Below the pieces are notes generated by a model. The model ran no database searches. It was not told the origin of the DNA and saw only the letters and a program-made list of their open reading frames with translations. A program made the translations under genes and the position numbers. Below, in pieces: positions 6,572-20,876 of a stretch of 64,000 bases of DNA (position 1 is the stretch's first letter; each line of letters begins with the position of its first letter). The DNA lies in contig CAYSOA010000004.1 in the NCBI GenBank assembly GCA_964432565.1, positions 38,839-102,838 of the forward strand, read 5' to 3'. This DNA comes from an uncultured Bacteriovorax sp. (GTDB taxonomy: Bacteria > Bdellovibrionota > UBA1018).

Positions 6572-7996
6572 CTATCCGTCGATGGGATCAGACGGATCCT
6601 CCCGCCGAAGACCCAGCTCCTTCATCTTCAGCTGCAGGCCCTTGCGGGAGAGGCCCAGCGCCTCGGCAGTACGGGTCACATTCCCGCCGTTGCGCTGCAG
6701 TTCATCCTCGATCAATGAACGCTCGAGCTCCTGCGTGCGCAGTCGCACCTTCTCCTTGAAGCTCAAGGACGCGGCCTCCTCCTGCTGAAAGCCGATGGCC
6801 CTGGCAATTTCCTCGGGCAGATCGGCCATTCCGAGGGCAGCCCCCTCGCACATGACGACCATTCGTTCGATGGTATTCTCGAGCTGGCGGATGTTTCCAG
6901 GCCAGGAATAGCACTTCAGCGTTTCGATCAGGTCATCATGGATCGTGGTCACGATGCGATTGACCCTGATGCAGGCCTGCTTGAGAAAGTACCGTGCCAG
7001 CGCCTCGAGATCGTTGAGCCGTTCGCGAAGAGCAGGAAGCTGGATCGGCACCACATTTAGGCGATAGAAGAGATCTTCGCGAAACCGTCCTGCCGCGATC
7101 TCGATTTCAAGTGAACGATGAGTCGCCGCGATCACACGAAAATCCGCGTGCAGGGTGCGCACTCCTCCGAGTCGCTCGAAGGTGCGTTCCTGCAGCACTC
7201 GAAGCAGCTTGGGCTGCATGTCCACCGGAATCTCGGCAATCTCATCCAGAAAAAGGGTTCCCCCATGGGCCAGCTCGAAACGGCCTGGCTTCGAGGTGAC
7301 GGCCCCAGTGAAAGCCCCGCGCTCATGGCCAAAAAGCTCGCTTTCCATCAGGTTTGCGGGAATGGCGGCACAGTTGAGCTTGATGAACGGCCCGTGGCTG
7401 CGCTCCGACTGCAGATGAATCCGTCGCGCCACCAGCTCTTTTCCGGTGCCGCTCTCACCAGTCAGAAGCACCGTCGAATCTCCAGAGGCCACTCGCGACA
7501 CCAAACGCAGGACCTCCTGCATCGCCTCGCTCGTCCCGAAGAGAGCACCCGCCGAATCCGCACTCTCCGCCCGGGGAGCACCGGCCGCGCGCTCCAGCAG
7601 GCGGGGCTCGCGGGCCTGTTCGACCGAAGAGGCCACCGCCTTTCGAATCGCGGCAAGAAGCTCCTCATGATCGAAGGGTTTGGTCACGAAATCCGCCGCG
7701 CCCCTGCGAAGAGCTGCCACTGCGGAGTCGACCGTTCCGTATGCAGTCAACAGGATAACCGGCAGCTCGGGACGAAATTTGCGGCAAAAATCGAGGACGG
7801 CGAGTCCGTCCATTCCGGGCATCGCGAGGTCGGTCAGAACGACATCGAGGGGCTCGGTTTCGAGCGACTCGATCGCGACTTCCGGCTCATTGAATGCAAG
7901 CACCTCGAACCCGGCACGTTCGAGCAGCGCCTTGAGCACCAGCGTGAGATTCCGCTCGTCATCAATGACCAGAATCCGGGCCCGGGTCTCGCTCAT
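6572..7996 (-). CDS. sigma54-dependent response regulator (NtrC family: REC + AAA+ sigma54-activator + HTH)
   Basis: The REC domain reads ILVIDDE, followed by Walker A (GESGTGKE), the GAFTGA motif and a C-terminal Fis-type HTH. The start was taken at MSETRAR and has a 4-nt ATGA overlap with the upstream kinase. Confidence 0.85.
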   Translation of the reverse strand: MSETRARILVIDDERNLTLVLKALLERAGFEVLAFNEPEVAIESLETEPLDVVLTDLAMPGMDGLAVLDFCRKFRPELPVILLTAYGTVDSAVAALRRGAADFVTKPFDHEELLAAIRKAVASSVEQAREPRLLERAAGAPRAESADSAGALFGTSEAMQEVLRLVSRVASGDSTVLLTGESGTGKELVARRIHLQSERSHGPFIKLNCAAIPANLMESELFGHERGAFTGAVTSKPGRFELAHGGTLFLDEIAEIPVDMQPKLLRVLQERTFERLGGVRTLHADFRVIAATHRSLEIEIAAGRFREDLFYRLNVVPIQLPALRERLNDLEALARYFLKQACIRVNRIVTTIHDDLIETLKCYSWPGNIRQLENTIERMVVMCEGAALGMADLPEEIARAIGFQQEEAASLSFKEKVRLRTQELERSLIEDELQRNGGNVTRTAEALGLSRKGLQLKMKELGLRREDPSDPIDG

Positions 7997-9990
7997 ACCC
8001 CTCTCCTTGTCGGAAAGCGCAGTCGGAAACAAGCCCCCGTCGCAAGGCCTTCCAACAGCTCGATTCTTCCGTGATGGGATTCAAGAATCCGCTGGCAGAT
8101 TGAAAGTCCGAGTCCGGTCCCGGAATGACTGGTGGTGAAGAACGGCACGAAAAGTTTTTTCCGGATCTCCTCCGACACGCCTCGACCATTGTCTCGAACA
8201 TCAATCAATGCCCATCTCCCGTCGCGCGAAAGGGTGGCGGAAAAAGAAACCTCTCTGGCGCCCGCATCCGCACTGTTTCTGACGAGGTTTTCCAGAACCT
8301 GGATGATCGCCTCAGGATCCATCTCCACCTTGATCGCAGGCGAATCGTTGCACCGAACGGCCAGGGACCGTTCGGGTTGTGACAGTGCAACCGACGACTC
8401 CAGGCGCGTCGCCGCGCGATGAAGCCATTCGTCCAGACGAACTGCTTCCAGTTCCGGACTGGACCTTCTCGAGTAAACAAGAAAGCGACTGACTACGTGA
8501 TTGAGACGAGCAACTTCCTCGCGGATGACTCGGGTCCACGGAGCCATCGCCGGCTCATCCGGCAGGAGCTCCGCCGCCCCCTGGATGGCTCCGAGAGGGT
8601 TTCGAATCTCGTGGGCGAGACCTGCGGCCATTTCACCGAGGGTCGCCAGACGTTCGCGCTCGGCCTCATCCCGAACCCGCAGCAGCAGCGCCAGGCTTCG
8701 TCCCGCCTCGTCGAGAAGCTCTTCGACCTCGCGAAGCTGCCGCCAAGACTGTAGTCCGGCGGCCCTGGGCCTGGGCACCTCGCTCAAGTCGACCAGTACC
8801 CAACCGAGCAACTGGCGTTCGAAGAGCGGAAGCACGCAGTTGGCTCCCGTTCGTCGAAGATCGTCCAGAACCGCCTGCAGACGCAGACGCACCCTCGCGC
8901 TCGAGGTACGCTCGATCTCGGCCTGAAGCAGGGGCTCGACAAGAACCGAGAGCCGCCCCGAATCCCGGCGATCTCGCATCTCTTCGGAGAGTGCCCCCAT
9001 GGCCTCGGCGGGATCCTGGTGCAGGAGCACCAGTCTCAGCGACGCAGGCAAAAGAGCCTGACTCACGCCCTCCCTCAGGCCCTCCTGCCAGGATTGCAGA
9101 TCGGCAGCCGATCGGAGCGACTGCATCGACTGCTCGAGCCGCCTTCTCCAGTCGGCGTCGCGATGCGCCAGAAGCCGATCCGTCAGGGCGGAGACCGTGC
9201 GCTGAAGCGGATTGAGCAGCATCACGATCAGAAACGATACGGCAAAGGAGTTGAGCAGAAAGAGCACCGGGTTCTGCTTGATCCAGGCGACGAGCAGCAG
9301 ATAGACACCTGTCAGCACGACAGCCAGTACCAAAAGTACGACAAATCGAGTGAACAGCAGCGGAAGATCGAGAAGTTTCTGCTGTCGAATCGCCTGTCCC
9401 AGCAGGATCAGATAAACACAAAGCAGCAAGTTTCCGAGCGAAGGAAGCAGGTGGCCCATCCAAGGGACGTGATCCATCGTGGAGAGGGCGAGGACCATCA
9501 GCGCTCCGCCAAAGATGACGCCGTCGCGAAGCGAGAGCGGCCGGCGCGTGGCAAGAATGACGAACACCTGCAGCACGACGGTAATGGGCGAGAAGAGCAT
9601 CACCGGCAGAATCGAGTCATGGGCCACCCCGCCACGTCCCCATGAAAGGCCCCAGACCACCGTCAAAACTACCGCCGACAGCAGGCTGACGGCCCAGAGG
9701 GCACGGGAGACGAGCGCTATCCAACCTTCGGGAAAACGCCCCACCCAGATGCGCAGGAAATGCAATGCGACAGGACCGAGCCAGACTCCTGCCAGGAGGT
9801 GCACGGCGTAGTACCCTCCTCCCGCAAAGACCTGCTCAAGGAAAAACGAAAGCGACCATACGAAGACCGCTCCGCACATTGCGGAGAAGCTGAAAAGCAG
9901 CCTGTTCTGAAGGCGCCGCGCCAGGACTGACATGGCCATGCCAAGACTGGTCAGGGACACCAGCAGAGCCGTTTGAGCCAGTAGGTTCAT
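7993..9990 (-). CDS. sensor histidine kinase with polytopic (about 9-10 TM) N-terminal membrane sensor domain
   Basis: About 290 aa of successive hydrophobic helices lead into a HisKA box (LAHEIRNPLGAI) and an HATPase_c domain (GTGLGLSICQRI). Confidence 0.8.
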   Translation of the reverse strand: MNLLAQTALLVSLTSLGMAMSVLARRLQNRLLFSFSAMCGAVFVWSLSFFLEQVFAGGGYYAVHLLAGVWLGPVALHFLRIWVGRFPEGWIALVSRALWAVSLLSAVVLTVVWGLSWGRGGVAHDSILPVMLFSPITVVLQVFVILATRRPLSLRDGVIFGGALMVLALSTMDHVPWMGHLLPSLGNLLLCVYLILLGQAIRQQKLLDLPLLFTRFVVLLVLAVVLTGVYLLLVAWIKQNPVLFLLNSFAVSFLIVMLLNPLQRTVSALTDRLLAHRDADWRRRLEQSMQSLRSAADLQSWQEGLREGVSQALLPASLRLVLLHQDPAEAMGALSEEMRDRRDSGRLSVLVEPLLQAEIERTSSARVRLRLQAVLDDLRRTGANCVLPLFERQLLGWVLVDLSEVPRPRAAGLQSWRQLREVEELLDEAGRSLALLLRVRDEAERERLATLGEMAAGLAHEIRNPLGAIQGAAELLPDEPAMAPWTRVIREEVARLNHVVSRFLVYSRRSSPELEAVRLDEWLHRAATRLESSVALSQPERSLAVRCNDSPAIKVEMDPEAIIQVLENLVRNSADAGAREVSFSATLSRDGRWALIDVRDNGRGVSEEIRKKLFVPFFTTSHSGTGLGLSICQRILESHHGRIELLEGLATGACFRLRFPTRRGV

Positions 9991-11268: not shown

Positions 11269-11923
11269 CTCCTGCACGACCTGCCACAAGCCAAGCGACC
11301 TCTGCGTCTGCTCGCTCGTTCAGCGATTTCCGAATCGCACTGCCATTCTCGTCCTGCAGCACCCGCAGGAGCCCGACCACGAGATCGGGTCGGCGTGGCT
11401 GGCCACCCAGTGCCTCGAAAACTCGCGACTCAAGGTGGGTCTGAGCTGGCCGAACCTCGCCAAGGCGTGGGGCGAGCCGGTGGATGCATCGCGATGGGGA
11501 GTGCTCTATCTCGGTAGCGGACCCAAGGGGGCAGCCCCGGCGGGTGACTCCCTGTTCTGCGTCGAAAAAAAGGGGACACCACTCGAAGCAACTTCAAATT
11601 CTGCCAAGCTCGCCAAGCTCGAGGGCGTGATTGTTCTCGATGGAACCTGGAGCCAGGCAAAGACCCTCTGGTGGAGAAATGCCTGGCTGCTGAAGCTTCA
11701 GCGACTGATGCTCTCGCCGAAAAATCCCTCACTGTACCGCGATCTACGCCGCGAGCCCCGTCGCGAATGCCTTTCGACGCTCGAAGCCATTGCCGAGATT
11801 CTCGAATCCCAGCGCCAGACGCCCGAAGGCGTGGCGCACCTGCGTGCCTCGTTCAGAGATCTGCTGTCGCGCTATCGCAGACGCCGACAGCAGGCTCGGG
11901 CGGCGAAAGCTCCCATCGATTAA
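11249..11923 (+). CDS. DTW-domain protein (tRNA-uridine aminocarboxypropyltransferase family)
   Basis: The N-terminus has a C-x2-C-x6-C-x-C cluster (CTTCHKPSDLCVC) and the DGTW motif is present (VLDGTWSQAK). The start is uncertain: it is either GTG near 11249 or the ORF start at 11204. Confidence 0.65.
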   Translation: MKTVKPDSCTTCHKPSDLCVCSLVQRFPNRTAILVLQHPQEPDHEIGSAWLATQCLENSRLKVGLSWPNLAKAWGEPVDASRWGVLYLGSGPKGAAPAGDSLFCVEKKGTPLEATSNSAKLAKLEGVIVLDGTWSQAKTLWWRNAWLLKLQRLMLSPKNPSLYRDLRREPRRECLSTLEAIAEILESQRQTPEGVAHLRASFRDLLSRYRRRRQQARAAKAPID

Positions 11924-11974
11924 TCCTCGACAGGGGCGACCATCGCGCAAGCCTTCGCACCGCTCAGAGGGCAC

Positions 11975-12241
11975 CTAGCGCTTGCGGTTCATGTTCTGAA
12001 GCATCTCCATCGCCTGACGGAGCTGGGCGTCCTTGCCGCCAGCGGCACCGGGACGACCGCCGCGCATGGCACCCATCTGTGCCTGCATGCGTGCCATCGC
12101 CTCCTGCATATTCTTTGCGCCCGGAAAGGCCACCTGCATCATCTGCTCGGCAGCCTGCTTGAGCTTCAAAAAGATGAACACGTTGACCGCGGTCAAGAGG
12201 GCCACACCTACCCAGCTGAGAATCGTCCAGATCGACATGCG
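11975..12241 (-). CDS. small Met-rich membrane protein (hypothetical)
   Basis: A single TM helix (ILSWVGVALLTAVNVFIF) is followed by a Met/Gln/Ala-rich tail (MQEAMARMQAQMGAM). The start was taken at MSIW. Confidence 0.45.
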   Translation of the reverse strand, partial: RMSIWTILSWVGVALLTAVNVFIFLKLKQAAEQMMQVAFPGAKNMQEAMARMQAQMGAMRGGRPGAAGGKDAQLRQAMEMLQNMNRKR

Positions 12242-12377
12242 CCGATGAATGTCACACCTGCCGACGGGATTCAAGGCGCGCAGCCGTGCAGAACGCCCGA
12301 GCACGCCGGTTGCTACGCCGAGCGCCTGAAGGGCTGCTCGCTGCAGCCCAATTTCTCAATCTGCGAAGGAGACTCTG

Positions 12378-13274
12378 ATGAAAGAACCGAAATTGACCCT
12401 GCTTGGAACCGGCACCCTGTTGCCCATCGCCATGGTGGCCCTTCTGGCCGCCTGCGCCGAACAACCGCGAGCGCCAGCCCCGTTCGCCCAACCGGCCCTT
12501 CCCCAGAAGGTACGTTTCGCCGTAAAGGGAGCTGCTGCATCGGAGAATCTCGAAGTCTTCGCGCGGCACGGCGTCGAATTCACACTCGATGGCGCAATCG
12601 AGGTCGGTCCGGCACCCGACGGCCAGACCCATCGCAAGATCCTGCCGGAATCCCAGCGCGTCCGATTGCAGGAGGCATGGTCGGCATTGCAGAACGGAGG
12701 ACTGACGGCCAGTGAAACCTGTGCCACGGCTCCCGACGAGTCGTCCTGGGCATCCAACGCCTGGCGTCTCTCGATTCTTTTCGGCGATCGCGAGACGGCA
12801 TTGTTTCGCATCGATGGCGGTCAGATCTGCGGTCCGGCAAAAGAAGAAAGCCTGGTCGACTTTTCGAAGGTCCTGTTCGAACTCGCTTCGATTCATTACC
12901 CCCGTCGCTTTCCGAGCGCCTGTCTCGCTGGGGCGGATGAGCTGACCGGACGTTTTCAGGAACTGCTCGCATGCGAGAGCGACGCCGACTGCGTGAACGT
13001 GGACCTCGACTTCGCTGGAATTCCTGCTGGTGAAGTGCATCACATTCCGCTGGCGGTCTGTTCGGCACTCCCCCATCTGGGGGCAGCGAATGCTGCGGCA
13101 CTCCAAAAAGAGCGGCGCAGCCTGCTTTCCTTGAAGGCCGAGTCACAGAGAGCCTGTGTAGCCGAGGAGCTCGCTCCCGTGTGCTCAACCGAGCAGGACC
13201 CGGGCTTCCAGAACCACCGTTATCCCGCGCGATGTCAGGCGCAGAAGTGTGTTCCTGGCAGAACTCGGGAATAA
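12378..13274 (+). CDS. hypothetical lipoprotein
   Basis: The lipobox reads LLAAC and several conserved Cys residues follow. The opposite-strand ORF 12252..13106 has poor coding character, so this strand was preferred. Confidence 0.5.
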   Translation: MKEPKLTLLGTGTLLPIAMVALLAACAEQPRAPAPFAQPALPQKVRFAVKGAAASENLEVFARHGVEFTLDGAIEVGPAPDGQTHRKILPESQRVRLQEAWSALQNGGLTASETCATAPDESSWASNAWRLSILFGDRETALFRIDGGQICGPAKEESLVDFSKVLFELASIHYPRRFPSACLAGADELTGRFQELLACESDADCVNVDLDFAGIPAGEVHHIPLAVCSALPHLGAANAAALQKERRSLLSLKAESQRACVAEELAPVCSTEQDPGFQNHRYPARCQAQKCVPGRTRE

Positions 13275-13292
13275 TCCTATTCCCAGCAGTAG

Positions 13293-13308
13293 TGGCATCG
13301 GGGTTGCT
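13293..13308 (+). promoter_or_regulatory. sigma54 (-24/-12) promoter candidate
   Basis: The element TGGCAT-cgggg-TTGCT matches the TGGCAC-N5-TTGCW consensus, with GG and GC exactly 10 nt apart, and lies 45 nt upstream of the 13353 start. Confidence 0.6.
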
Positions 13309-13352
13309 TCACTGGCTGGATCGAAATCGTCGATCCTCAGAGGAGCAACCCC

Positions 13353-14117
13353 GTGCGTCATTCACCATCCCCTCTTTTGATCCGTCTCATGGCCTGGCTT
13401 CCGGTTCTGCTCAGCACACTGACTGCCTGCTCGATGCAGTCGAGGCAGTCCTACTCCCCCTCATCTCCGCAGACCGAATTGGTGCGAGCGCGAGACTGGG
13501 ACTTCATGACCATGGTCATCAAGGGCGCTCGCACGCAGCTCGAAAATAATGGCCACTTCAGAACAGTTCCCAATGCGTGCTACCGGCGCGAAAACGGTGC
13601 CCTTGAGCTCGAGCTCTGGAACCGAGTCGCCACTGCCGTGAATCGACTGCTCGAACAGCAGTGGCTGGACGAACCCGTTTGCGAGGCGCGTCCGGCCGGC
13701 GCTGCCGACATCTACCAGCCGGTGGTCCTACATCTGCTCAACCAGGAACAAATCGAAATTCTCACTCCCAATGGCTCACGCTTTTGTACTCGTTCGGTCG
13801 ATGTCGAAACCGCATCGACGCTTCTGGTGGCTCTTGCCGAAGTCGGTAAGCGAGCTTCACTGGAGGGCTGCCCCCCTCGAAGTACGTCGCTCTGGCAGGG
13901 CGTGCGAAGCCCCTTGGATGCGGATCACGACTGGCCGGGTGATGGACGCGACGACAATGATGACGATGATCATGGGGATGATCACGACCATAGCCGAGAC
14001 GATGAGCGAAACGATGAGCGAAACGATGACGAGGATCGCGACCAGGACTGGCGAGAGGGGCGCCCCTCTACTCCCCACCAGAAGGGCCAGCAAAAAGGAC
14101 ATCAAAGAGACTGGTAG
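13353..14117 (+). CDS. hypothetical lipoprotein with Asp/His/Glu-rich C-terminal tail
   Basis: The lipobox reads LTAC. The C-terminus is DDNDDDDHGDDHDHSRDDERNDERNDDEDRDQD, and the DNA there contains a 12-nt tandem repeat. Confidence 0.55.
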   Translation: MRHSPSPLLIRLMAWLPVLLSTLTACSMQSRQSYSPSSPQTELVRARDWDFMTMVIKGARTQLENNGHFRTVPNACYRRENGALELELWNRVATAVNRLLEQQWLDEPVCEARPAGAADIYQPVVLHLLNQEQIEILTPNGSRFCTRSVDVETASTLLVALAEVGKRASLEGCPPRSTSLWQGVRSPLDADHDWPGDGRDDNDDDDHGDDHDHSRDDERNDERNDDEDRDQDWREGRPSTPHQKGQQKGHQRDW

Positions 14118-14839
14118 GCCTGCAGCATCTTCTCCCGACAAATCGAGGCCAGAGTCGCCACATCGCTTCGTCCCAGCCCCCGGGTGGGCACGGGTTCGAG
14201 TGCCTTGACCGTGATGGTTCCAGAAGTCAATCGGTGCCTGCCGTGGTCGAGTACCGCGCTGATCGGCGAGGCCACCAGCGGAACCAGCGGCAGACCCGTT
14301 TCGATTGCCATATGGAAGGCCCCCTTTTTGAACGGCAGGAGTCCGACACCCGAGCGATTTCGAGTCCCCTCGGGAAAAATCATCACGCTTACGCCACGCT
14401 CTCGAATCTGACGACTCGCCGACCCAATCCCAGCGATGGCCTGATGATGCCGCTTACGATCGAGAAAGATGTTTCCGGCTGCGTAATAAAAGAGATTGAA
14501 GAACGGAATCCACAGTAGCTCGCGCTTGCCGATCACGATCGTGTTCGAGGGAAAGAGCGAGCCGAAAATCAGGATGTCGAGGTTGTCCTGATGGTTGCAG
14601 ATGTAGATGCAGGGCTGAAACGGCTGGAGCGACTCGGCGCCCTCGAGCCGAATTTGAATGCGAGTGATTCTCGAAAGTCCCCAGACCCCGAGCCGCGCCA
14701 CGATTCGATTGAAGTGCGGACTGCCAAAAAGAAACGGAATCAACAGAACACCCACGACCGACATGAAAAGAAGCCAGACCAGCACCAGCAGATAGCGGAC
14801 GAAAAAATCGACGGTTTGCATCTGGCTCCACCACACCAC
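14102..14839 (-). CDS. plsC: 1-acyl-sn-glycerol-3-phosphate acyltransferase
   Basis: The acyltransferase motifs are present: NHQDNLD for HX4D, and FPEGTR. Confidence 0.85.
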   Translation of the reverse strand: MVWWSQMQTVDFFVRYLLVLVWLLFMSVVGVLLIPFLFGSPHFNRIVARLGVWGLSRITRIQIRLEGAESLQPFQPCIYICNHQDNLDILIFGSLFPSNTIVIGKRELLWIPFFNLFYYAAGNIFLDRKRHHQAIAGIGSASRQIRERGVSVMIFPEGTRNRSGVGLLPFKKGAFHMAIETGLPLVPLVASPISAVLDHGRHRLTSGTITVKALEPVPTRGLGRSDVATLASICREKMLQAYQSL

Positions 14840-14862
14840 GGCACGGTGCCTGGCTCAAGCCC

Positions 14863-15816
14863 TCACAGATTTTCCCTCAGCCAGTCGAGGTCGATCTCGG
14901 GGTTCCGACTCCCCAGCTGATCCTCCGCCGCATCGGTTGGAATCGTCACGAAGTCGGGATGGTTCCAGCGACTCGATCCGGTCCAGCGTGAACTCAGGAC
15001 AATGTGCCCGTCATTGCCCGGAGCCGTTTCGAAATCATAGGTGTACTCGAGAATCGTCGCCAGACGCTGGATCGAATCGGCGTCGTCATCGTAGGGAAAA
15101 GTGGCCTCGACCCAGGCACGAACATGAAACAGCGAACGCCTCTGAAGATCGCGCGCCACTTCCATCGTGGCGGCGTGCACCGGCGTATTCCAGACCGGAG
15201 GTCGTGGATCGCGATCCATGATAATGGGCTTTTTCTTCTCTCCAAGCATCACTTCGAGAACCCGATGAAACTCGGCCGGAGCCGGATCATCAAAATCCGA
15301 TCTTCCATCCCCGTCGTTACGGCTGCCAAAGATCACACGAGATCCCTCTGGTAACCTCTCGTGGGCGTGAACCCAGAGAGCCTTCTGTTCCGCGATACTG
15401 AAAACTGCCGTGAGCCCCTCCCTCTCGACCCGGCGTTCGAGCCGGGGCTCGGGATGAAGCACTGAGGCCAGCGCCCAGGCGTCGCAACGTCCCTCCCAGG
15501 GCAGGAAGGGCCTCGACTCGCCCCGGATCCTTTGCTCTTCAAATTCCAAAGCACGCCGCCCCGTCAAAAGATCATGTTTACGAAGCGCCGAACGGGCATC
15601 GAGACGGGACAAGGGGTACCAGTAACCGGACCAGGGAATCGTTGCCGCACGAAGAGAGAAAATCCCCTCTCGAACGATCACGGGTCCGTGCAGTCGCGTG
15701 ACGTCTCCCCACTCGACGACCTCGCCGGGTGGAGCAACCAGGGACGAAGAGGAGGGAGGAGCTCCGCACGCGGCCACTCCGATCAGGAGCATTCCGATCC
15801 ACAGTGACTGGCGCAA
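14863..15816 (-). CDS. hypothetical lipoprotein (317 aa)
   Basis: The lipobox reads VAAC. The ORF sits inside an operon between a hypothetical gene and plsC, and its function is not recognised. Confidence 0.5.
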   Translation of the reverse strand: MRQSLWIGMLLIGVAACGAPPSSSSLVAPPGEVVEWGDVTRLHGPVIVREGIFSLRAATIPWSGYWYPLSRLDARSALRKHDLLTGRRALEFEEQRIRGESRPFLPWEGRCDAWALASVLHPEPRLERRVEREGLTAVFSIAEQKALWVHAHERLPEGSRVIFGSRNDGDGRSDFDDPAPAEFHRVLEVMLGEKKKPIIMDRDPRPPVWNTPVHAATMEVARDLQRRSLFHVRAWVEATFPYDDDADSIQRLATILEYTYDFETAPGNDGHIVLSSRWTGSSRWNHPDFVTIPTDAAEDQLGSRNPEIDLDWLRENL

Positions 15817-15848
15817 GAGCCCCTCCCTTCTGATTGCCTGCGATGCGA

Positions 15849-16457
15849 CTATTCGGCCTGAACCGGAATTCCGGCGCAGGTATCCACCTCTCGACCGGTT
15901 GCGCGAACCTGAACGGCAGACTCGTTCTTGCCACGCGACTCATCGATTCGAGCGCGACAAAGCTCGGAGAATCCGATCTTCATGTCGAGAATCTCGGCGC
16001 AGCTGACCGGCACTTCAATCGAGAAGTCTTCAATCACTTCCTGGTACCGCTGACAGGCCCCCGAGCTTTGCACGGCTTCGACCTCGGATGAGGTTTCGGC
16101 CACCTTGAACTTGTCCGAGACCACGGTGATGCCGACACGGCGCTCGGACTTGAGGGGAATCCGGCCCGGAACGCCCGCGATCCATGTCTGCTCCTGGTTC
16201 CGGCAGACGACCCGAATATCCTGGGGAGCGCGTTGCACCTCGCTCTTTGAAGGATCGGCACACTGCTCGCGAAAGCGTTCGAAACTCACTTCCGTGGCAC
16301 TCTCCGCAGGAGAAACAGGCCCAGCGTCGCCTCCACCTTCGCCATCGCTGGCCATGGCGTAAAGCGACGTCATGGCCACAAGGCTGAAAATGGCGAGCGC
16401 CCAGTATCCGTTTCGTTCACGCAACTTTCCCTGACTGATTCCACTCTTTCTGTTCAT
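15849..16457 (-). CDS. hypothetical membrane-anchored protein
   Basis: The start was taken at MNRKSG, followed by a TM segment (YWALAIFSLVAMTSLYA). Confidence 0.45.
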   Translation of the reverse strand: MNRKSGISQGKLRERNGYWALAIFSLVAMTSLYAMASDGEGGGDAGPVSPAESATEVSFERFREQCADPSKSEVQRAPQDIRVVCRNQEQTWIAGVPGRIPLKSERRVGITVVSDKFKVAETSSEVEAVQSSGACQRYQEVIEDFSIEVPVSCAEILDMKIGFSELCRARIDESRGKNESAVQVRATGREVDTCAGIPVQAE

Positions 16458-16546
16458 GCTACCCCCTCGGTAATCAATTGAACCGGCACCAATTCCGGTC
16501 GGCTGCCGGAATTGCAACGCAGGTGCCACCGAGCGGCCTTGAGGCT

Positions 16547-17992
16547 TCAGTCCAAACCGTAGCGCCGACGCTTTCTCCAAAGCGTGCTGAGATTGATTCC
16601 CAGGATCGTGGCGGCCTCTTCGAGCGTCTGCGTCGTACCCAGAACGCTCAGGATATGGCGTCGTTCGAGTTCCTCGAGGCTCACTTCGGCGGCAGATAGC
16701 TGGTTCGGCGCACCGTCGATCATTGCAGATTGCGACACAAAGGAAGCCTGTTCGCCTGCTGAAGCGTGCAGTACGCCCGATGCTGCCGGCACGGCATCCG
16801 CCTTTGTCGGAGCTGACGAGAAGCCTTCGACGACGCGATCGGGCAGATCATCCAGCGTCACCTGGTCCGTCGAGCAAAGGATGGCGGCACGCTCGAGGGC
16901 GTTCTTGAGCTCGCGAATGTTTCCCGGCCACGGATAGGCCCGGATTGCTGCAGCTGCTTCGGCACTGAAGGGGCGTGCGGGCCGATTTGCGGCGACAAAG
17001 GACTTCTGCAGAAGTCCCTCGGCCAGGGCGGGAATGTCCTCGCTGCGGTTGCGAAGCGAGGGCATGTGCAGATCGATCACATTCAGCCGAAAGTACAAAT
17101 CCTCGCGAAAACGCCCCTGGCGAACCTCATGTTCGAGGTCCTTGTTCGTAGCCGCAATGATGCGAACGTCCACGCGGATGGTCTTGGTATCGCCGACCCG
17201 CTCGAACTCGCGTTCCTGCAGAAATCGAAGCAGCTTGGTCTGCAGCGACGGCGAGATCTCGCCGATCTCATCAAGAAATACGGTACCGCTCTCGGCGAGC
17301 TGCAGCCGTCCCACCTTGTCCTTCACGGCACCTGTAAACGATCCTCGGACGTGTCCGAAGAGCTCGGACTCGAGCAGATTTTCTGAAAGCGTCGCACAGT
17401 TGACCACGGCAAAAGGACCTTTCGAACGCTGGCTGGCATCGTGCGTAATCTTCGCAAGAAGCGTCTTTCCCGTACCGCTTTCACCGGTGATCAGAATGGT
17501 CGAGTCGGTTGCCGCCACCTTCCTCGCCATGTCGAGCACCTTCTGCATTCGAGCATTTTTCGTCGTAATACTCGACGGGTCAGAAAGGACTTCGACGGTG
17601 TCCCGAAGCTTCAGGTTCTCGTCGCTGAGCCGCCTGAACTCCTCGATTCGTGAAACCAGGTGCTCGAGCTGCTCGGGAGTGAAGGGTTTGACCAGATAAT
17701 CATAGGCTCCCCCCTTCATGGCACTGATGGCCGTATCAATGGTGGCATAGGCCGTCATGAGCACCGGCGTTACTCCGGGAAAATATTCCCGGGTCTTTCC
17801 CAGAAGATCGAGGCCGCTCATTCCATCCATCCTGAGATCGGTGATCAGGATATCGGGACTCGAACGACGCATCAGCGAAAGAGCCATCTCTCCACTGTCG
17901 GCCACCTGAACCTCGTGGCCCGCAGCGGTCAGTGCCGCCTCCATGGTGCTGCAGATTCCCTGTTCGTCATCAACCACCAGCAACTTCGACAT
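16547..17992 (-). CDS. sigma54-dependent response regulator (NtrC family)
   Basis: The REC domain reads LLVVDDE, followed by GESGTGKT, GSFTGA and a C-terminal HTH. The start was taken at MSKLL. Confidence 0.85.
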   Translation of the reverse strand: MSKLLVVDDEQGICSTMEAALTAAGHEVQVADSGEMALSLMRRSSPDILITDLRMDGMSGLDLLGKTREYFPGVTPVLMTAYATIDTAISAMKGGAYDYLVKPFTPEQLEHLVSRIEEFRRLSDENLKLRDTVEVLSDPSSITTKNARMQKVLDMARKVAATDSTILITGESGTGKTLLAKITHDASQRSKGPFAVVNCATLSENLLESELFGHVRGSFTGAVKDKVGRLQLAESGTVFLDEIGEISPSLQTKLLRFLQEREFERVGDTKTIRVDVRIIAATNKDLEHEVRQGRFREDLYFRLNVIDLHMPSLRNRSEDIPALAEGLLQKSFVAANRPARPFSAEAAAAIRAYPWPGNIRELKNALERAAILCSTDQVTLDDLPDRVVEGFSSAPTKADAVPAASGVLHASAGEQASFVSQSAMIDGAPNQLSAAEVSLEELERRHILSVLGTTQTLEEAATILGINLSTLWRKRRRYGLD

Positions 17993-19805
17993 AATTCCGG
18001 CCCCCTCCTCTGTTATTGAATTCATGCCCGGACTGCGGAACCACCAACACGAGTTCCGTTCCGGTCGATTGATCCGTCCTCATGGCCAGTGAGCCTCCAT
18101 GCGCAATGGCAACCTCGCGCGCAATCGCAAGACTCATGCCGGTTGCGTTGCTTCGTGCAACGCGAAGACTGTAATGTGCAAATCCACGTTCGAAGAGGCG
18201 CTCTTGAATCTCGCCGGGAAATTGGAGGGCAGCTCCACAGATCCGAATTTCGAAATCGCTGCCGCTCGATCCGCCGGATCGCACCATGCCGACCTGAAGC
18301 CGGGAGCCGCGACTCGAGTGACGAACCGCCTCGGTCAGCATGCTCGACAGCACCCAGGCCAGACGTGCCGGGTCGACTCGGACCGTGGAGTCCCCCAGCG
18401 TCTCGGAGAAGTGGAGCTCGAGTCGAATCTGCCGCTGCTCCGCTTCACTTCGAGCCGCCCTCACCGCCTGCGCCAGAAGCCGCCTCAGATCGGAGGCTCG
18501 CAGATTGAGGCTCTCGGAATTCAGATCGAAGCGGCTGGTCACCAGAAGCTCGTCGATCAGTTCACGCAGGCGATCCACGTCACGAACACTGGTGTCGACC
18601 AAACGCCGCTGCACGTCGGTCAGCGAACCAGCGGGCGAGCGCTGCAGCAGGCGTGTGGCCATCAATAGACTCGTGACCGGGGTTTTCACTTCGTGCGACA
18701 ACAAGGCCAGGAAGTGGGCCTTGGCCTCCTCGCCCTGGCGAATCCACGAGATGTCCTGGGCGACGACAATCGTATCTGCGGCATTCCGGCCATCCCCGGC
18801 CCGCGAAGATTCCGAAGACCGCGTCACCAGGTAGGAGGCGATCTGGACGCCATCCTCCGATCGAACAACGAGTTCAACCGGTGTCCAACGCGAGGCGGCC
18901 GTCAAAATCGCCGAGGCAGCACGCTGTCGGTTGTCCTTGTCGCTGAATCCGGAATCAGCAGCCTTCTCAAGATCGACCGGATGGAGACCGCGATGAAACT
19001 CCTCTTCAAGAATTCGGGCTCCAGTGGCGTTTCGCCACACGACCGTGCTGCCGCGAAGCACGAAGATGCCGTCTCGATTGATCCTCGAAAGGACCTGGTT
19101 TCGAGCCTTCTGCTCGAGAAGATCCCCCTTTGACTTCTTCTGATAGGCTCGAAGCTTTTCGATCAATGCGACGGTTCCCCGCTCGAACTGCAGAATCTCC
19201 TCGGGGGCCGATTCAAAGCCGTGTCGGCGGCGATCTGCCTCCTTCGAAAAAAGCGCCGGCAGGTCCTGCGACAGATCGAGCGTACCGAGGTACCGGGCCA
19301 GATAACTTGCCGGGCGGACCACGCTATTGAAGTGGCGCCGAAACAGAAACAGCACCACGAGAAAAATCACTCCCCAAAAAAGCAGTCCTCGCCCCAGAAT
19401 GCCCCGAAGGCGAATCTCGCGATCGTCCGAAAGACGTACGAGCTCGAGCGACTGGTGGAACTGCCAGCCCTCGGCAATCGCCTTCAGCAGTCTGATATCA
19501 GGGGCCGGCTGACTGAACTGGGCCATCAGGGCACTGACGTAGGTGTTTCCGATTACGTCACCGCGAGAGTCCGGATCAACCGAGCGCACTAGAGCGAGCG
19601 CCCGCCCGAACTCGTGAGCCACGATATGCATTCGAACTCGACTCGAGACATCCAGCAGCTCCTGGCGCAGCAGGTGAGTCTTGCGGCTGGCTTGAATCTC
19701 GTCGGCCACCTCGAGGCCGACCCAGGCCATTGTCGCACCGATCATGACCAGAAGCAGCAGGAGCCCCGACTGATAGATTTCAAAAAGCGAGCGGGACCTG
19801 CTCAC
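17970..19805 (-). CDS. sensor histidine kinase (2 TM, HAMP/PAS, HisKA, HATPase_c)
   Basis: The GTG start overlaps the upstream gene's stop (GTGA). The HisKA box reads LSHEVKTPV, the ATPase domain contains GTGMSLAIAREV, and its 3' end overlaps the response regulator by 23 nt. Confidence 0.8.
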   Translation of the reverse strand: MSRSRSLFEIYQSGLLLLLVMIGATMAWVGLEVADEIQASRKTHLLRQELLDVSSRVRMHIVAHEFGRALALVRSVDPDSRGDVIGNTYVSALMAQFSQPAPDIRLLKAIAEGWQFHQSLELVRLSDDREIRLRGILGRGLLFWGVIFLVVLFLFRRHFNSVVRPASYLARYLGTLDLSQDLPALFSKEADRRRHGFESAPEEILQFERGTVALIEKLRAYQKKSKGDLLEQKARNQVLSRINRDGIFVLRGSTVVWRNATGARILEEEFHRGLHPVDLEKAADSGFSDKDNRQRAASAILTAASRWTPVELVVRSEDGVQIASYLVTRSSESSRAGDGRNAADTIVVAQDISWIRQGEEAKAHFLALLSHEVKTPVTSLLMATRLLQRSPAGSLTDVQRRLVDTSVRDVDRLRELIDELLVTSRFDLNSESLNLRASDLRRLLAQAVRAARSEAEQRQIRLELHFSETLGDSTVRVDPARLAWVLSSMLTEAVRHSSRGSRLQVGMVRSGGSSGSDFEIRICGAALQFPGEIQERLFERGFAHYSLRVARSNATGMSLAIAREVAIAHGGSLAMRTDQSTGTELVLVVPQSGHEFNNRGGGRNYVEVAGG

Positions 19806-20398: not shown

Positions 20399-20414
20399 GG
20401 CAAAGCGCGTGCCG
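20399..20414 (-). promoter_or_regulatory. sigma54 (-24/-12) promoter candidate for the membrane protein / HK / sigma54-RR operon
   Basis: On the minus strand the element reads cGGCAC-gcgct-TTGCc, with GG-N10-GC spacing. It lies about 35 nt upstream of the 20365 start codon. Confidence 0.55.
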
Positions 20415-20501
20415 CAGCCCAAGCCCCGGTTTTCAAGCACTTCAAACTGTCATGACATTTGCCTGAAGATTGCGTTTTGCACGAAGCCGACGAAAAGTCG
20501 G

Positions 20502-20876
20502 TTATCCTGCACTGCGAACCCGTGCAGATTCGCGTTCGCGAATGGCCTGGCAGCGCGCACAAAGCCGGGCCTCGGGTACGACCAGGAGCCGCTTTTCGGG
20601 AATCTCCTCATCGCAATCTTCACAGACGCCAAAGCCCACTGATGCGATTTTTGCGAGCGCGCGATCGATCGCCTGAATTTCGCGAAGCTCCTGCTCCTGT
20701 AACGAGGCGGTGCGACCGAGATGCTCGAGGCTCTGGGCAATATCCACCATCTCCGCCTGGGAATCGACGCGATCCATTTCGCTTTCGGTCAGGATGGAAG
20801 GGATCAGCCCTTCTCCCAACCTCGCCCGGCGCGCCTTCAGGATGTCGTGAATCTTGTCTCGAGTGCCTCGGTCCAT
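20502..20876 (-). CDS. DksA/TraR-family C4 zinc-finger transcription factor
   Basis: The C-terminus has C-x2-C-x17-C-x2-C (CEDCDEEIPEKRLLVVPEARLCARCQ) after a coiled-coil region. The start was taken at MDRGTRD, giving 124 aa. Confidence 0.75.
   Translation of the reverse strand: MDRGTRDKIHDILKARRARLGEGLIPSILTESEMDRVDSQAEMVDIAQSLEHLGRTASLQEQELREIQAIDRALAKIASVGFGVCEDCDEEIPEKRLLVVPEARLCARCQAIRERESARVRSAG

What the first reader, a model, noticed from the sequence alone, without database searches (positions are those of the whole stretch)
13293..14117. Strong sigma54 promoter drives a lipoprotein with an Asp/His-rich tail encoded by tandem 12-nt repeats
The element TGGCAT-N5-TTGCT lies 45 nt upstream of a lipoprotein gene whose C-terminus is DDNDDDDHGDDHDHSRDDERNDERNDDEDRDQD, a sequence that may bind metal. 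The corresponding DNA carries ACGATGAGCGAA twice plus a degenerate third copy at 13999-14034. That is a potential slipped-strand length-variable site.

Two sigma54 enhancer-binding response regulators are encoded 3-6 kb away on either side. That makes this a plausible target, for example in a metal or envelope-stress response.
Basis: seen in the sequence. Interest (0 to 1): 0.5.

Follow-up and report, generated by a model that had tools for sequence, protein, structure and literature searches.

The report
Sigma-54 promoter inside a ribosome-site-masking hairpin
A conserved sigma-54 promoter in front of an uncharacterised predatory-bacterium (Bdellovibrionota) lipoprotein gene is also one arm of a strong, conserved hairpin whose other arm covers the gene's ribosome-binding site, so probably only transcripts started at that promoter can be translated.

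Summary
TGGCATCGGGGTTGCT (13293-13308) is one of only two full sigma-54 consensus matches in 64 kb (0.07 expected). The lipoprotein ORF (13353-14117), its acidic tail and the 12-nt x2.9 repeat (13995-14029) are real. Two sigma-54 activators flank the gene.

New evidence:
- **Promoter conservation.** The promoter is invariant in 12 related Bdellovibrionota loci whose proteins are only 37-62% identical.
Promoter spacer plus -12 element (CGGGGTTGCTYC) pairs with the Shine-Dalgarno/start region (GGAGCAACCCCG-GTG). The stem is -31 to -43 kcal/mol, z -4.6 to -9.2, with two compensatory changes, strand-specific G.U pairs and varied inner stems.
- **Geometry.** A sigma-54 transcript should start inside the hairpin and lack the masking arm. 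Read-through from the co-directional upstream lipoprotein gene would be masked or stopped. This resembles IS10 "fold-back inhibition" but has not been tested experimentally.
- **The tail.** It is a disordered, lineage-specific appendage that changes by in-frame repeat slippage. Acidity is conserved; histidine is not.
- **Activator.** Which one acts on this promoter could not be determined.

This is a new variant of known kinds, of moderate interest.

The parts
13293..13308 (+). P1: sigma-54 (-24/-12) promoter TGGCATCGGGGTTGCT. The predicted start is about 13319, 12 nt after the C of the GC element.
   Evidence: Two matches in the window against 0.07 expected. TGGCAY-N5-TTGCW is conserved in 12 related loci, including a 37%-identical relative. 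The start site is inferred from standard sigma-54 geometry and was not measured.
13295..13356 (+). Conserved hairpin. The 5' arm (13295-13325) is the promoter's GCA, spacer, -12 element and the following bases. The 3' arm (13331-13356) is the Shine-Dalgarno, the SD-start spacer and the GTG start codon.
   Evidence: MFE -41.4 kcal/mol, z -6.3, 0 of 200 shuffles. Inverted repeat 13299-13314 / 13338-13353. Ten further loci give z -4.6 to -9.2. Outer stem is 97% paired with 2 compensatory pairs and 12 G.U cells. The arms are unique in the window and loci. No Rfam match.
13340..13345 (+). Shine-Dalgarno GAGGAG of the lipoprotein gene, inside the 3' arm.
   Evidence: AGGAGCAAC is invariant in the 10 loci aligned from the promoter to the start codon. 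It is paired in every MFE structure.
13353..14117 (+). Lipoprotein gene, 254 aa. Signal peptide and lipobox Cys26 are at 13353-13430. The conserved 4-Cys domain is about residues 41-175.
13872..14114 (+). Disordered acidic tail (81 aa, net charge -14) ending in a conserved QKGxQ...W motif.
   Evidence: pLDDT 51-59. Net charge is -6 to -14 in relatives with a tail, and His count is 1-10. A tail of at least 40 aa occurs in only 11 of 138 family sequences. The C-terminal motif is conserved.
13995..14029 (+). In-frame tandem repeat, 12 nt x2.9 (CGAAACGATGAG), encoding (D)ERND-ERND.
   Evidence: TRF score 63. There is a 24-nt indel against L007, which carries a different 12-nt x2.5 repeat. L004 has a 6-nt x4.7 repeat and L010 a 6-nt x2.5 repeat.
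12378..13274 (+). Co-directional upstream gene encoding a 298-aa lipoprotein (lipobox LAAC). It is the presumed source of read-through transcripts and ends 19 nt before P1.
   Evidence: ORF and translation. It sits in the same position in all related loci. No Pfam or NCBIfam match.
16513..16528 (-). P2: second sigma-54 promoter TGGCACCTGCGTTGCA, 19 nt after the activator gene. It drives the convergent operon of a secreted protein (15849-16457), a TGase_elicitor-like lipoprotein (14863-15816) and an acyltransferase (14102-14839).
   Evidence: it is conserved in every locus that reaches this point. Its leader shows no significant structure (z -1.3 and -0.6).
16547..18025 (-). Sigma-54 activator response regulator (GSFTGA); its histidine kinase is at 17970-19805(-). 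The nearest candidate activator of P1.
   Evidence: Pfam. Synteny is conserved. A link to P1 is not shown.
6572..8032 (-). Second sigma-54 activator response regulator (GAFTGA); its histidine kinase is at 7993-9990(-). An alternative candidate activator.
   Evidence: Pfam. Synteny is conserved.

Best explanation
The gene at 13353-14117 encodes a periplasm-facing lipoprotein of an uncharacterised, apparently Bdellovibrionota-restricted family (every related contig that carries an organism name is from that phylum). It is transcribed from its own sigma-54 promoter (P1, 13293-13308) when an enhancer-binding activator fires.

The promoter also forms the 5' arm of a stem-loop of about 25 base pairs. 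The 3' arm of that stem-loop is the gene's Shine-Dalgarno sequence and GTG start codon.

Transcripts that enter from the co-directional upstream lipoprotein gene contain both arms. They fold at about -41 kcal/mol, so they are either stopped there or cannot load ribosomes.

Transcripts initiated by sigma-54 begin about 12 nt after the -12 GC, at about 13319, which is inside the hairpin. They lack the anti-Shine-Dalgarno arm and should be translatable.

The net effect is that lipoprotein synthesis depends only on P1 and its activator, within an intergenic spacer of just 78 nt.

The C-terminal acidic tail is a disordered, fast-evolving appendage that grows and shrinks by slippage of in-frame 6- and 12-nt repeats.

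Shown: the motif, its conservation, the hairpin and its covariation, the gene family, and the tail variation. Inferred: promoter activity, the start-site position, the existence of read-through, and the translational or termination effect.
For: **Promoter**
- Two consensus matches in the window against 0.07 expected.
- It is invariant in 12 loci whose proteins are 37-62% identical, while the surrounding intergenic bases diverge.
- TGGCA stays conserved in L010 and L013, where its pairing partners are lost, and in L015, where the hairpin is absent. The promoter is therefore under selection of its own.
- Both neighbouring activators have intact sigma-54 contact motifs.

**Hairpin**
- z is -4.6 to -9.2 with 0 of 200 shuffles in 11 loci.
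- The 15-pair outer stem is 97% paired, against 41-50% when the partner columns are slid.
- There are compensatory changes: C-G to U-A in L013 (also visible by eye in L018) and G-C to A-U in L010.
- Twelve cells are G.U on the + strand. These would be A.C mismatches on the other strand, which points to sense-strand RNA.
- Inner stems differ in sequence and length yet always pair.

**Specificity**
- The sigma-54-initiated leader alone has no significant structure (z +0.1).
- Neither the P2 nor the P0 leader shows a comparable structure.
- The arms are unique, so this is not a dispersed repeat.

**Natural comparison**
- The distant relative L015 has a canonical terminator (-26.5 kcal/mol, z -6.6, followed by U9) between the upstream gene and P1, and it lacks the promoter-SD hairpin.

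**Precedent**
- IS10 sequesters its translation signals against external promoters (Davis, Simons and Kleckner 1985, as cited in PMC13181058).
Against: - There are no transcript data. The start site, read-through and sigma-54 dependence are all inferred.
- No enhancer (UAS) was found upstream of P1. No k-mer is shared with P2, there is no TGCA cluster like the one upstream of P3, and the upstream gene's 3' end shows no synonymous-site conservation.
- Only two outer-stem pairs show double changes. In the shuffle control, 5 of 500 shuffles reached the observed values, and related sequences can inflate that measure.
- The L015 comparison is a single case.
- The hairpin could act by termination rather than translation block, and the data cannot separate the two.
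Confidence: 0.55

Rival explanations
1. The hairpin is mainly the transcription terminator, or the 3'-end stabiliser, of the upstream lipoprotein mRNA. Its overlap with the promoter and Shine-Dalgarno is a by-product of packing everything into 78 nt, with no role in translation control.
For: - It starts 21 nt after the upstream stop codon and is very stable.
- L015 has a canonical terminator in the equivalent place.
Against: - No U-tract follows the stem in any locus, and the terminator scan calls nothing there.
- The 3' arm always ends exactly at or over the start codon and always includes the SD.
- The compensated positions lie in the SD-start spacer.
- This reading is not exclusive of the main one.
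Confidence: 0.25
2. The two lipoprotein genes form one operon transcribed from upstream. The hairpin is a regulated translational operator (thermometer, or target of an sRNA or protein) in the real mRNA, and the sigma-54 motif is not a working promoter.
For: - The genes are co-directional and 78 nt apart in all loci.
- The hairpin is strand-specific RNA.
Against: - The full 16-nt sigma-54 consensus is conserved.
- It is conserved even where the TGGCA bases are unpaired (L010, L013) and where the hairpin is absent (L015).
- A second and a third sigma-54 promoter and two activators lie in the same conserved locus.
- A stem of about -40 kcal/mol is far too stable for a thermometer.
Confidence: 0.08
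3. The inverted repeat works as DNA. It is either a palindromic operator for a repressor overlapping P1 or a cruciform that modulates sigma-54 promoter melting.
For: It is an inverted repeat centred just downstream of the -12 element, where sigma-54 melting begins.
Against: - Twelve G.U cells would be A.C mismatches on the other strand.
- The inner parts vary freely in sequence and length while keeping pairing, which suits an RNA stem rather than a protein operator.
Confidence: 0.05
4. One reading: the Asp/His-rich tail is a metal-binding module, the 12-nt repeat is a slipped-strand switch, and the gene belongs to a metal or envelope-stress regulon of a neighbouring activator.
For: - The tail is strongly acidic in all relatives that have one (net -6 to -14) and changes length at short repeats.
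- The locus encodes several envelope proteins under sigma-54 promoters.
Against: - His is not conserved (1 to 10 per tail).
- The tail is absent from P0008 and from most of the family.
- The repeat is in frame with only 2.9 copies.
- The same protein sequence (P0001, 100% identical) was assembled in a second, independent sequencing run.
- No activator site was identified.
Confidence: 0.15

Closest known systems
IS10/Tn10 'fold-back inhibition' (also described for IS3 and other insertion sequences)
   Same: Transcripts entering from outside carry a 5' segment that pairs with the ribosome-binding site and start codon of the gene. Transcripts from the gene's own promoter start inside or after that segment and can be translated (Davis, Simons and Kleckner 1985, cited in PMC13181058; mechanism details are from my own knowledge).
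   Different: - Here the gene is a chromosomal lipoprotein gene in stable synteny, not a transposase gene.
- The own promoter is sigma-54-type.
- The masking arm is the promoter's spacer and -12 element itself.
- Nothing here has been tested experimentally.
Borrelia burgdorferi rpoS, which has a sigma-54 promoter plus an inhibitory 5'-UTR structure
   Same: It is a sigma-54-transcribed gene for which an inhibitory mRNA secondary structure around the translation start is described (relieved by DsrA; PMC3966842). From my own knowledge, the structure affects a longer transcript that starts upstream of the sigma-54 start.
   Different: - In Borrelia the structure is opened by a small RNA and is not built from the promoter sequence.
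- Here no trans-acting factor is implied, and the stem is much stronger.
NtrC-family two-component sigma-54 regulons (-24/-12 promoter, enhancer-binding response regulator, histidine kinase)
   Same: - A consensus -24 GG / -12 GC promoter.
- Adjacent histidine kinase and response regulator pairs with AAA+ sigma-54 interaction domains.
- A self-promoter (P3) with palindromic TGCA sites upstream.
   Different: - No enhancer was identifiable for P1.
- The target is an uncharacterised envelope lipoprotein, not a nitrogen, flagellar or phage-shock function.
5'-processing-activated type I toxin mRNAs (dinQ, tisB, hok)
   Same: The full-length RNA is translationally inert because a 5' segment masks the ribosome-binding site, and a 5'-shortened RNA is active (PMC5066626, listed).
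   Different: There the short form arises by RNA processing. Here it would arise from a second, internal transcription start.

Membership tests
Sigma-54 (-24/-12) promoter | GG and GC dinucleotides 10 nt apart within TGGCAC-N5-TTGCW | tested here: met
   TGGCATCGGGGTTGCT at 13293-13308. Two matches in the window against 0.07 expected.
Sigma-54 (-24/-12) promoter | Conservation of the element in orthologous loci beyond the flanking DNA | tested here: met
   Invariant TGGCA and GTTGC in 12 loci whose proteins are 37-62% identical.
Sigma-54 (-24/-12) promoter | An enhancer-binding AAA+ activator encoded in the genome | tested here: met
   Two response regulators with Sigma54_activat domains and GAFTGA/GSFTGA motifs. 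rpoN itself was not among the window ORFs scanned.
Sigma-54 (-24/-12) promoter | Upstream activator sequence about 80-200 bp upstream | tested here: inconclusive
   No k-mer shared with P2, no TGCA cluster, and no synonymous-site conservation in the upstream gene.
Sigma-54 (-24/-12) promoter | rpoN- and activator-dependent start about 12 nt after the GC | not testable with these tools
   Needs 5'-end mapping and mutants.
Bacterial lipoprotein (signal peptidase II substrate) | Positively charged n-region, hydrophobic h-region and lipobox [LVI][ASTVI][GAS]C | tested here: met
   MRHSPSPLLIRLMAWLPVLLSTLTAC. Cys26 is at least 90% conserved in the family. A lipobox-like motif occurs in 87 of 138 family sequences.
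Fold-back inhibition-type RBS sequestration (IS10-like) | The 3' arm covers the Shine-Dalgarno and start codon | tested here: met
   GGAGCAACCCCG-GTG is paired in all 11 loci.
Fold-back inhibition-type RBS sequestration (IS10-like) | The 5' arm lies upstream of the gene's own transcription start | tested here: inconclusive
   The anti-SD CUCC sits at about -10 to -7 of P1, so it is excluded from a sigma-54 transcript by standard geometry. The start site was not measured.
Fold-back inhibition-type RBS sequestration (IS10-like) | The structure is under selection (covariation) | tested here: met
   Two compensatory pairs, 12 G.U cells, 97% paired against 41-50% when slid, and divergent inner stems that all pair.
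Fold-back inhibition-type RBS sequestration (IS10-like) | Incoming co-directional transcription exists and is translationally silent | not testable with these tools
   A co-directional gene ends 19 nt upstream in all loci. Read-through and its translation were not measurable.
Fold-back inhibition-type RBS sequestration (IS10-like) | Located in a mobile element, protecting a transposase | tested here: not met
   It is a chromosomal gene in conserved synteny, and the arms are not repeated elsewhere. It works like this family but is not a member of the IS systems.
Intrinsic (Rho-independent) terminator | GC-rich stem followed directly by a U-tract | tested here: not met
   The stem is present but no T-run follows in any locus, and the scan calls no site there. 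L015 does have a canonical one.
Simple-sequence contingency (phase-variable) locus | A long tract of short repeats whose copy-number change switches expression on or off | tested here: not met
   The 12-nt unit is in frame with 2.9 copies. The variation seen is between lineages only.
His-rich metal-binding tail | Conserved histidine clusters | tested here: not met
   His count per tail is 1-10 and positions are not aligned. The tail is absent in P0008 and in most of the family.

The most novel reading that the evidence does not exclude
A chromosomal 'promoter-gated translation' module. The sigma-54 promoter's own spacer and -12 bases double as the anti-Shine-Dalgarno arm, so the choice of transcription start decides whether the mRNA can be translated. 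This would replace a terminator in a compact intergenic spacer and has been kept across a clade of Bdellovibrionota. I found no described sigma-54 example in the searchable literature.
Probability: 0.5. Interest if true: 0.6.

Novelty: new variant of a known kind. Interest (0 to 1): 0.5.

Why it matters
- **Insulation without a terminator.** It would show how a bacterium with tightly packed genes shields an activator-dependent gene from neighbouring transcription by re-using promoter bases as an RNA masking arm. This adds a sequence constraint on sigma-54 promoter spacers that motif scans ignore.
- **A testable design.** The arrangement is compact and could be used for synthetic circuits whose output depends on which promoter fired.
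- **An entry point to a regulon.** The locus defines a small, conserved envelope regulon in poorly studied predatory bacteria: three sigma-54 promoters, two activator/kinase pairs, three lipoproteins, a secreted protein and an acyltransferase.
- **A new lipoprotein family.** The family has 130 cluster representatives and no Pfam, NCBIfam or structural assignment.

Tried and rejected
- **Paralogy with the upstream lipoprotein.** Rejected: BLASTP E = 39.
- **Pfam, NCBIfam and PDB sequence searches for the lipoprotein and 46 relatives.** Nothing found.
- **Enhancer search for P1.** I tried shared 6-8-mers between P1 and P2 upstream regions, TGCA-motif mapping, and synonymous-site conservation in the upstream gene. 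None gave a signal.
- **Sigma-70 promoter and terminator scan of 11800-16700.** No promoter, and no terminator at the hairpin.
- **Rfam on 13150-13500.** No match.
- **Dispersed repeat (REP/MITE) reading.** Rejected: the arms are unique.
- **Metagenome scan.** It added only three short loci, and only one of them included the promoter.
- **Literature.** Searches for a sigma-54 promoter combined with an RBS-masking hairpin found no precedent. The library is incomplete.
- **rpoN.** Not among the ten large window ORFs scanned.

Full report
**1.

The sequence TGGCAT-CGGGG-TTGCT lies at 13293-13308 on the + strand. The pattern TGGCAY-N5-TTGCW occurs only twice in the 64-kb window. Dinucleotide shuffles predict 0.07 matches, and none of 100 shuffles gave two.

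A GAGGAG Shine-Dalgarno lies at 13340-13345. The ORF runs from the GTG at 13353 to 14117.

The product starts MRHSPSPLLIRLMAWLPVLLSTLTAC, a standard lipoprotein signal with lipobox L-T-A-C. It carries the quoted Asp/His/Arg-rich stretch. Tandem Repeats Finder reports a 12-nt unit x2.9 at 13995-14029.

The two neighbouring response regulators, 6572-8032(-) and 16547-18025(-), have Response_reg, Sigma54_activat and HTH_8 domains. Their contact motifs are GAFTGA and GSFTGA. Each follows a histidine kinase gene.

**2. Context and relatives**

The lipoprotein has no Pfam or NCBIfam match. A word-indexed search found ten relatives. A profile search over 1.84 billion representatives found 130 clusters, mostly 160-195 aa.

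Related genome contigs are titled Bacteriovorax stolpii MAG, Bdellovibrionia, Bdellovibrionales and Bdellovibrio sp.. The window therefore probably comes from a Bdellovibrionota genome.

The gene order is the same in all long related contigs:
- glutamate dehydrogenase and a glycosyltransferase;
- activator 1 and kinase 1, on the minus strand;
- a small protein, then RadC and DTW genes;
- a lipoprotein of about 300 aa, followed by this lipoprotein on the same strand;
- converging from the other side: a PlsC-type acyltransferase, a TGase_elicitor-like lipoprotein and a secreted protein of about 195 aa;
- activator 2, kinase 2 and a protein of about 235 aa.

The locus is stable and chromosomal.

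**3. The promoter is conserved**

I aligned the spacer between the upstream lipoprotein gene and this gene from seven loci. I then located the motif in every locus.

TGGCAY-N5-TTGCW is present in all 12 distinct loci that include the region. That includes L015, whose protein is only 37% identical. The intergenic bases around the motif diverge. This is good comparative evidence that P1 is functional.

**4.

The same alignment showed a second invariant block, AGGAGCAACCCCG, directly before the GTG. It is the reverse complement of the promoter's spacer plus -12 element, CGGGGTTGCTCC. The repeat finder reports arms at 13299-13314 and 13338-13353.

As RNA, 13293-13360 forms one long stem-loop of -41.4 kcal/mol. 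The z-score is -6.3 and 0 of 200 shuffles fold as well. Ten further loci give -31.5 to -42.3 kcal/mol with z from -4.6 to -9.2.

On the alignment the 15-pair outer stem behaves as follows:
- 97% of cells form a standard pair, against 41-50% when the partner columns are slid.
- Two positions carry compensatory changes: C-G to U-A in L013, and G-C to A-U in L010. Read by eye, L018 (which was not in that alignment) shows the same U-A change as L013.
- Twelve cells are G.U pairs on the + strand. They would be A.C mismatches on the other strand, so the structure is selected as sense-strand RNA, not as duplex DNA.

The inner part of the stem differs between lineages and varies in length, yet it always pairs. 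Examples are GAUCGA/UCGAUC here, CGGAA/UUCCG in L002 and its relatives, and GGAG/CCUC in L008.

The TGGCA bases stay conserved in L010 and L013, where their pairing partners are lost, and in L015, where the hairpin is absent. Promoter and hairpin are therefore two separate constraints on the same bases.

**5. Controls**

- The presumed sigma-54 transcript alone (13319-13400) has no unusual structure (z +0.1).
- The leaders of the second sigma-54 promoter P2 give z -1.3 and -0.6.
- The conserved promoter-like element upstream of the neighbouring gene, P0, gives z -0.14, +0.61, -1.82 and -2.37 in four loci. None of these approaches P1, and none forms a promoter-SD hairpin.
- The arms occur nowhere else in the window or the loci.
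- Rfam has no match.

**6. Mechanism**

By standard sigma-54 geometry, transcription starts about 12 nt after the C of the -12 GC, at about 13319. That is my own knowledge of the promoter class, not a measurement.

This point lies inside the hairpin. The anti-Shine-Dalgarno bases CUCC sit at about -10 to -7 and cannot be part of a P1 transcript.

An RNA containing both arms must therefore start further upstream. The obvious source is the co-directional lipoprotein gene that ends at 13274, 19 nt before P1, in every locus. Such RNA would have its SD and start codon locked in a stem of about -40 kcal/mol.

No U-tract follows the stem, so it is not a canonical terminator. A pausing or termination role cannot be excluded.

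Either way, the downstream gene is insulated from upstream transcription and left dependent on P1. This is the logic of IS10 fold-back inhibition (Davis, Simons and Kleckner 1985, cited in PMC13181058). It also recalls the inhibitory 5'-UTR structure of the sigma-54-transcribed rpoS of Borrelia (PMC3966842).

One natural comparison fits the model. In L015 a canonical terminator (-26.5 kcal/mol, z -6.6, followed by U9) sits between the upstream gene and P1, and the promoter-SD hairpin is missing. This is a single case.

**7. Which activator?**

This is unresolved.
- P2 (16528-16513, minus strand) lies 19 nt after activator 2. It is conserved in every locus that reaches it.
- A third sigma-54-type element, P3, is CGGCACGCGCTTTGCC at 20414-20399 (minus strand). 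It precedes the small-protein/kinase-2/activator-2 operon and is conserved as GGCAYGCGCTTTGCC. TGCA-rich palindromes such as TTGCACGTGCAA lie about 70-135 nt upstream of it. That looks like autoregulation by activator 2.
- Upstream of P1 I found no such cluster, no k-mer shared with P2, and no synonymous-site conservation in the 3' end of the upstream gene.

**8. The protein**

With 47 relatives aligned, the invariant residues are W49, H68, C76, N97, C110, C145 and C173.

AlphaFold gives pLDDT of about 97 for residues 41-175. The fold is two beta-sheet-plus-long-helix halves. The four invariant cysteines suggest two disulfides in the periplasm; this is inference.

**9. The tail**

- It is predicted to be disordered (pLDDT 51-59).
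- A tail of at least 40 aa occurs in only 11 of 138 family sequences.
- Where present it is acidic, with net charge -6 to -14. Histidine count ranges from 1 to 10, and the histidines do not align.
- A short C-terminal motif, QKGKQ(E/D)xS-xWW, is conserved.
- Against its closest relative (L007, protein 86% identical) the window has 24 extra bases at the repeat.
- L007 carries a different 12-nt duplication (GACGATAGCCGA x2.5). L004 has GACCAG x4.7 and L010 has ACCCCT x2.5.

The tail therefore evolves by in-frame slippage. With 2.9 copies of a 12-mer, it is not an on/off switch. The identical protein (P0001) was assembled in a second, independent sequencing run. General cation binding by the acidic tail is possible, but specific His-based metal binding is not supported.

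**10. Verdict**

The sigma-54 promoter and the lipoprotein are ordinary members of known kinds. The lipoprotein family itself is undescribed.

The promoter-embedded, conserved RBS-masking hairpin is a new variant of a known principle. I found no sigma-54 example in the searchable literature, though that library is incomplete. Everything about activity is inferred from sequence, and transcript 5'-end mapping plus reporter fusions would settle it.

Noticed in passing
window 16513-16528 (-): A second consensus sigma-54 promoter (TGGCACCTGCGTTGCA) lies 19 nt after the activator gene. It is conserved in every related locus that reaches it. It heads the operon of a secreted protein (15849-16457), a TGase_elicitor-like lipoprotein (14863-15816) and a PlsC-type acyltransferase (14102-14839). 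Its leader has a small conserved CCGG...CCGG hairpin but no promoter-SD pairing.
   Followed up: partly
window 20399-20414 (-), with sites at about 20480-20550: A third sigma-54-type element (CGGCACGCGCTTTGCC, conserved as GGCAYGCGCTTTGCC) lies upstream of the small-protein/kinase/activator operon. TGCA-rich palindromes (for example TTGCACGTGCAA in relatives) lie about 70-135 nt further upstream. This is a candidate enhancer for autoregulation of activator 2.
   Followed up: partly
window 12299-12315 (+): GAGCAC-GCCGG-TTGCTA lies 63 nt before the ATG of the upstream 298-aa lipoprotein gene (12378). It is conserved as GAGCAY-N5-TTGCT in all 10 loci examined. It has sigma-54 spacing and a -12 element, but AG where the near-invariant -24 GG should be. 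It is either a non-canonical sigma-54 promoter or a site for another factor.
   Followed up: partly
window 14102-14117: The lipoprotein gene and the convergent acyltransferase gene overlap by 16 nt at their 3' ends, with no terminator between them. Relatives overlap similarly. Transcription from P1 and P2 would collide.
   Followed up: no
L015 744-792: In the most distant relative, a canonical bidirectional-looking intrinsic terminator (A-tract, 18-bp stem, U9) separates the upstream lipoprotein gene from the sigma-54 promoter. That locus lacks the promoter-SD hairpin.
   Followed up: yes
window 12378-13274 (+): The upstream lipoprotein (lipobox LAAC) belongs to another family with no Pfam or NCBIfam match. 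It has conserved Cys residues and a C-terminal GFQNHR..ARC....C..G motif, and it always sits next to the studied gene.
   Followed up: partly
window 12248-12279: A conserved block, TGTCACA...TTCAAGG, lies next to the start of the small gene of about 87 aa on the minus strand. Read on that strand it looks like TTGAA-N-TGTGACA, a possible extended -10 promoter. The window lacks about 110 nt of intergenic DNA that L002, L004 and L005 have here.
   Followed up: no
L005 6199-7798 and L008 5759-6945: The otherwise fixed gene order has lineage-specific insertions between the DTW gene and the small minus-strand gene. L005 has an extra response regulator plus PAS histidine kinase. L008 has a metallophosphatase plus a cNMP-binding protein.
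   Followed up: no
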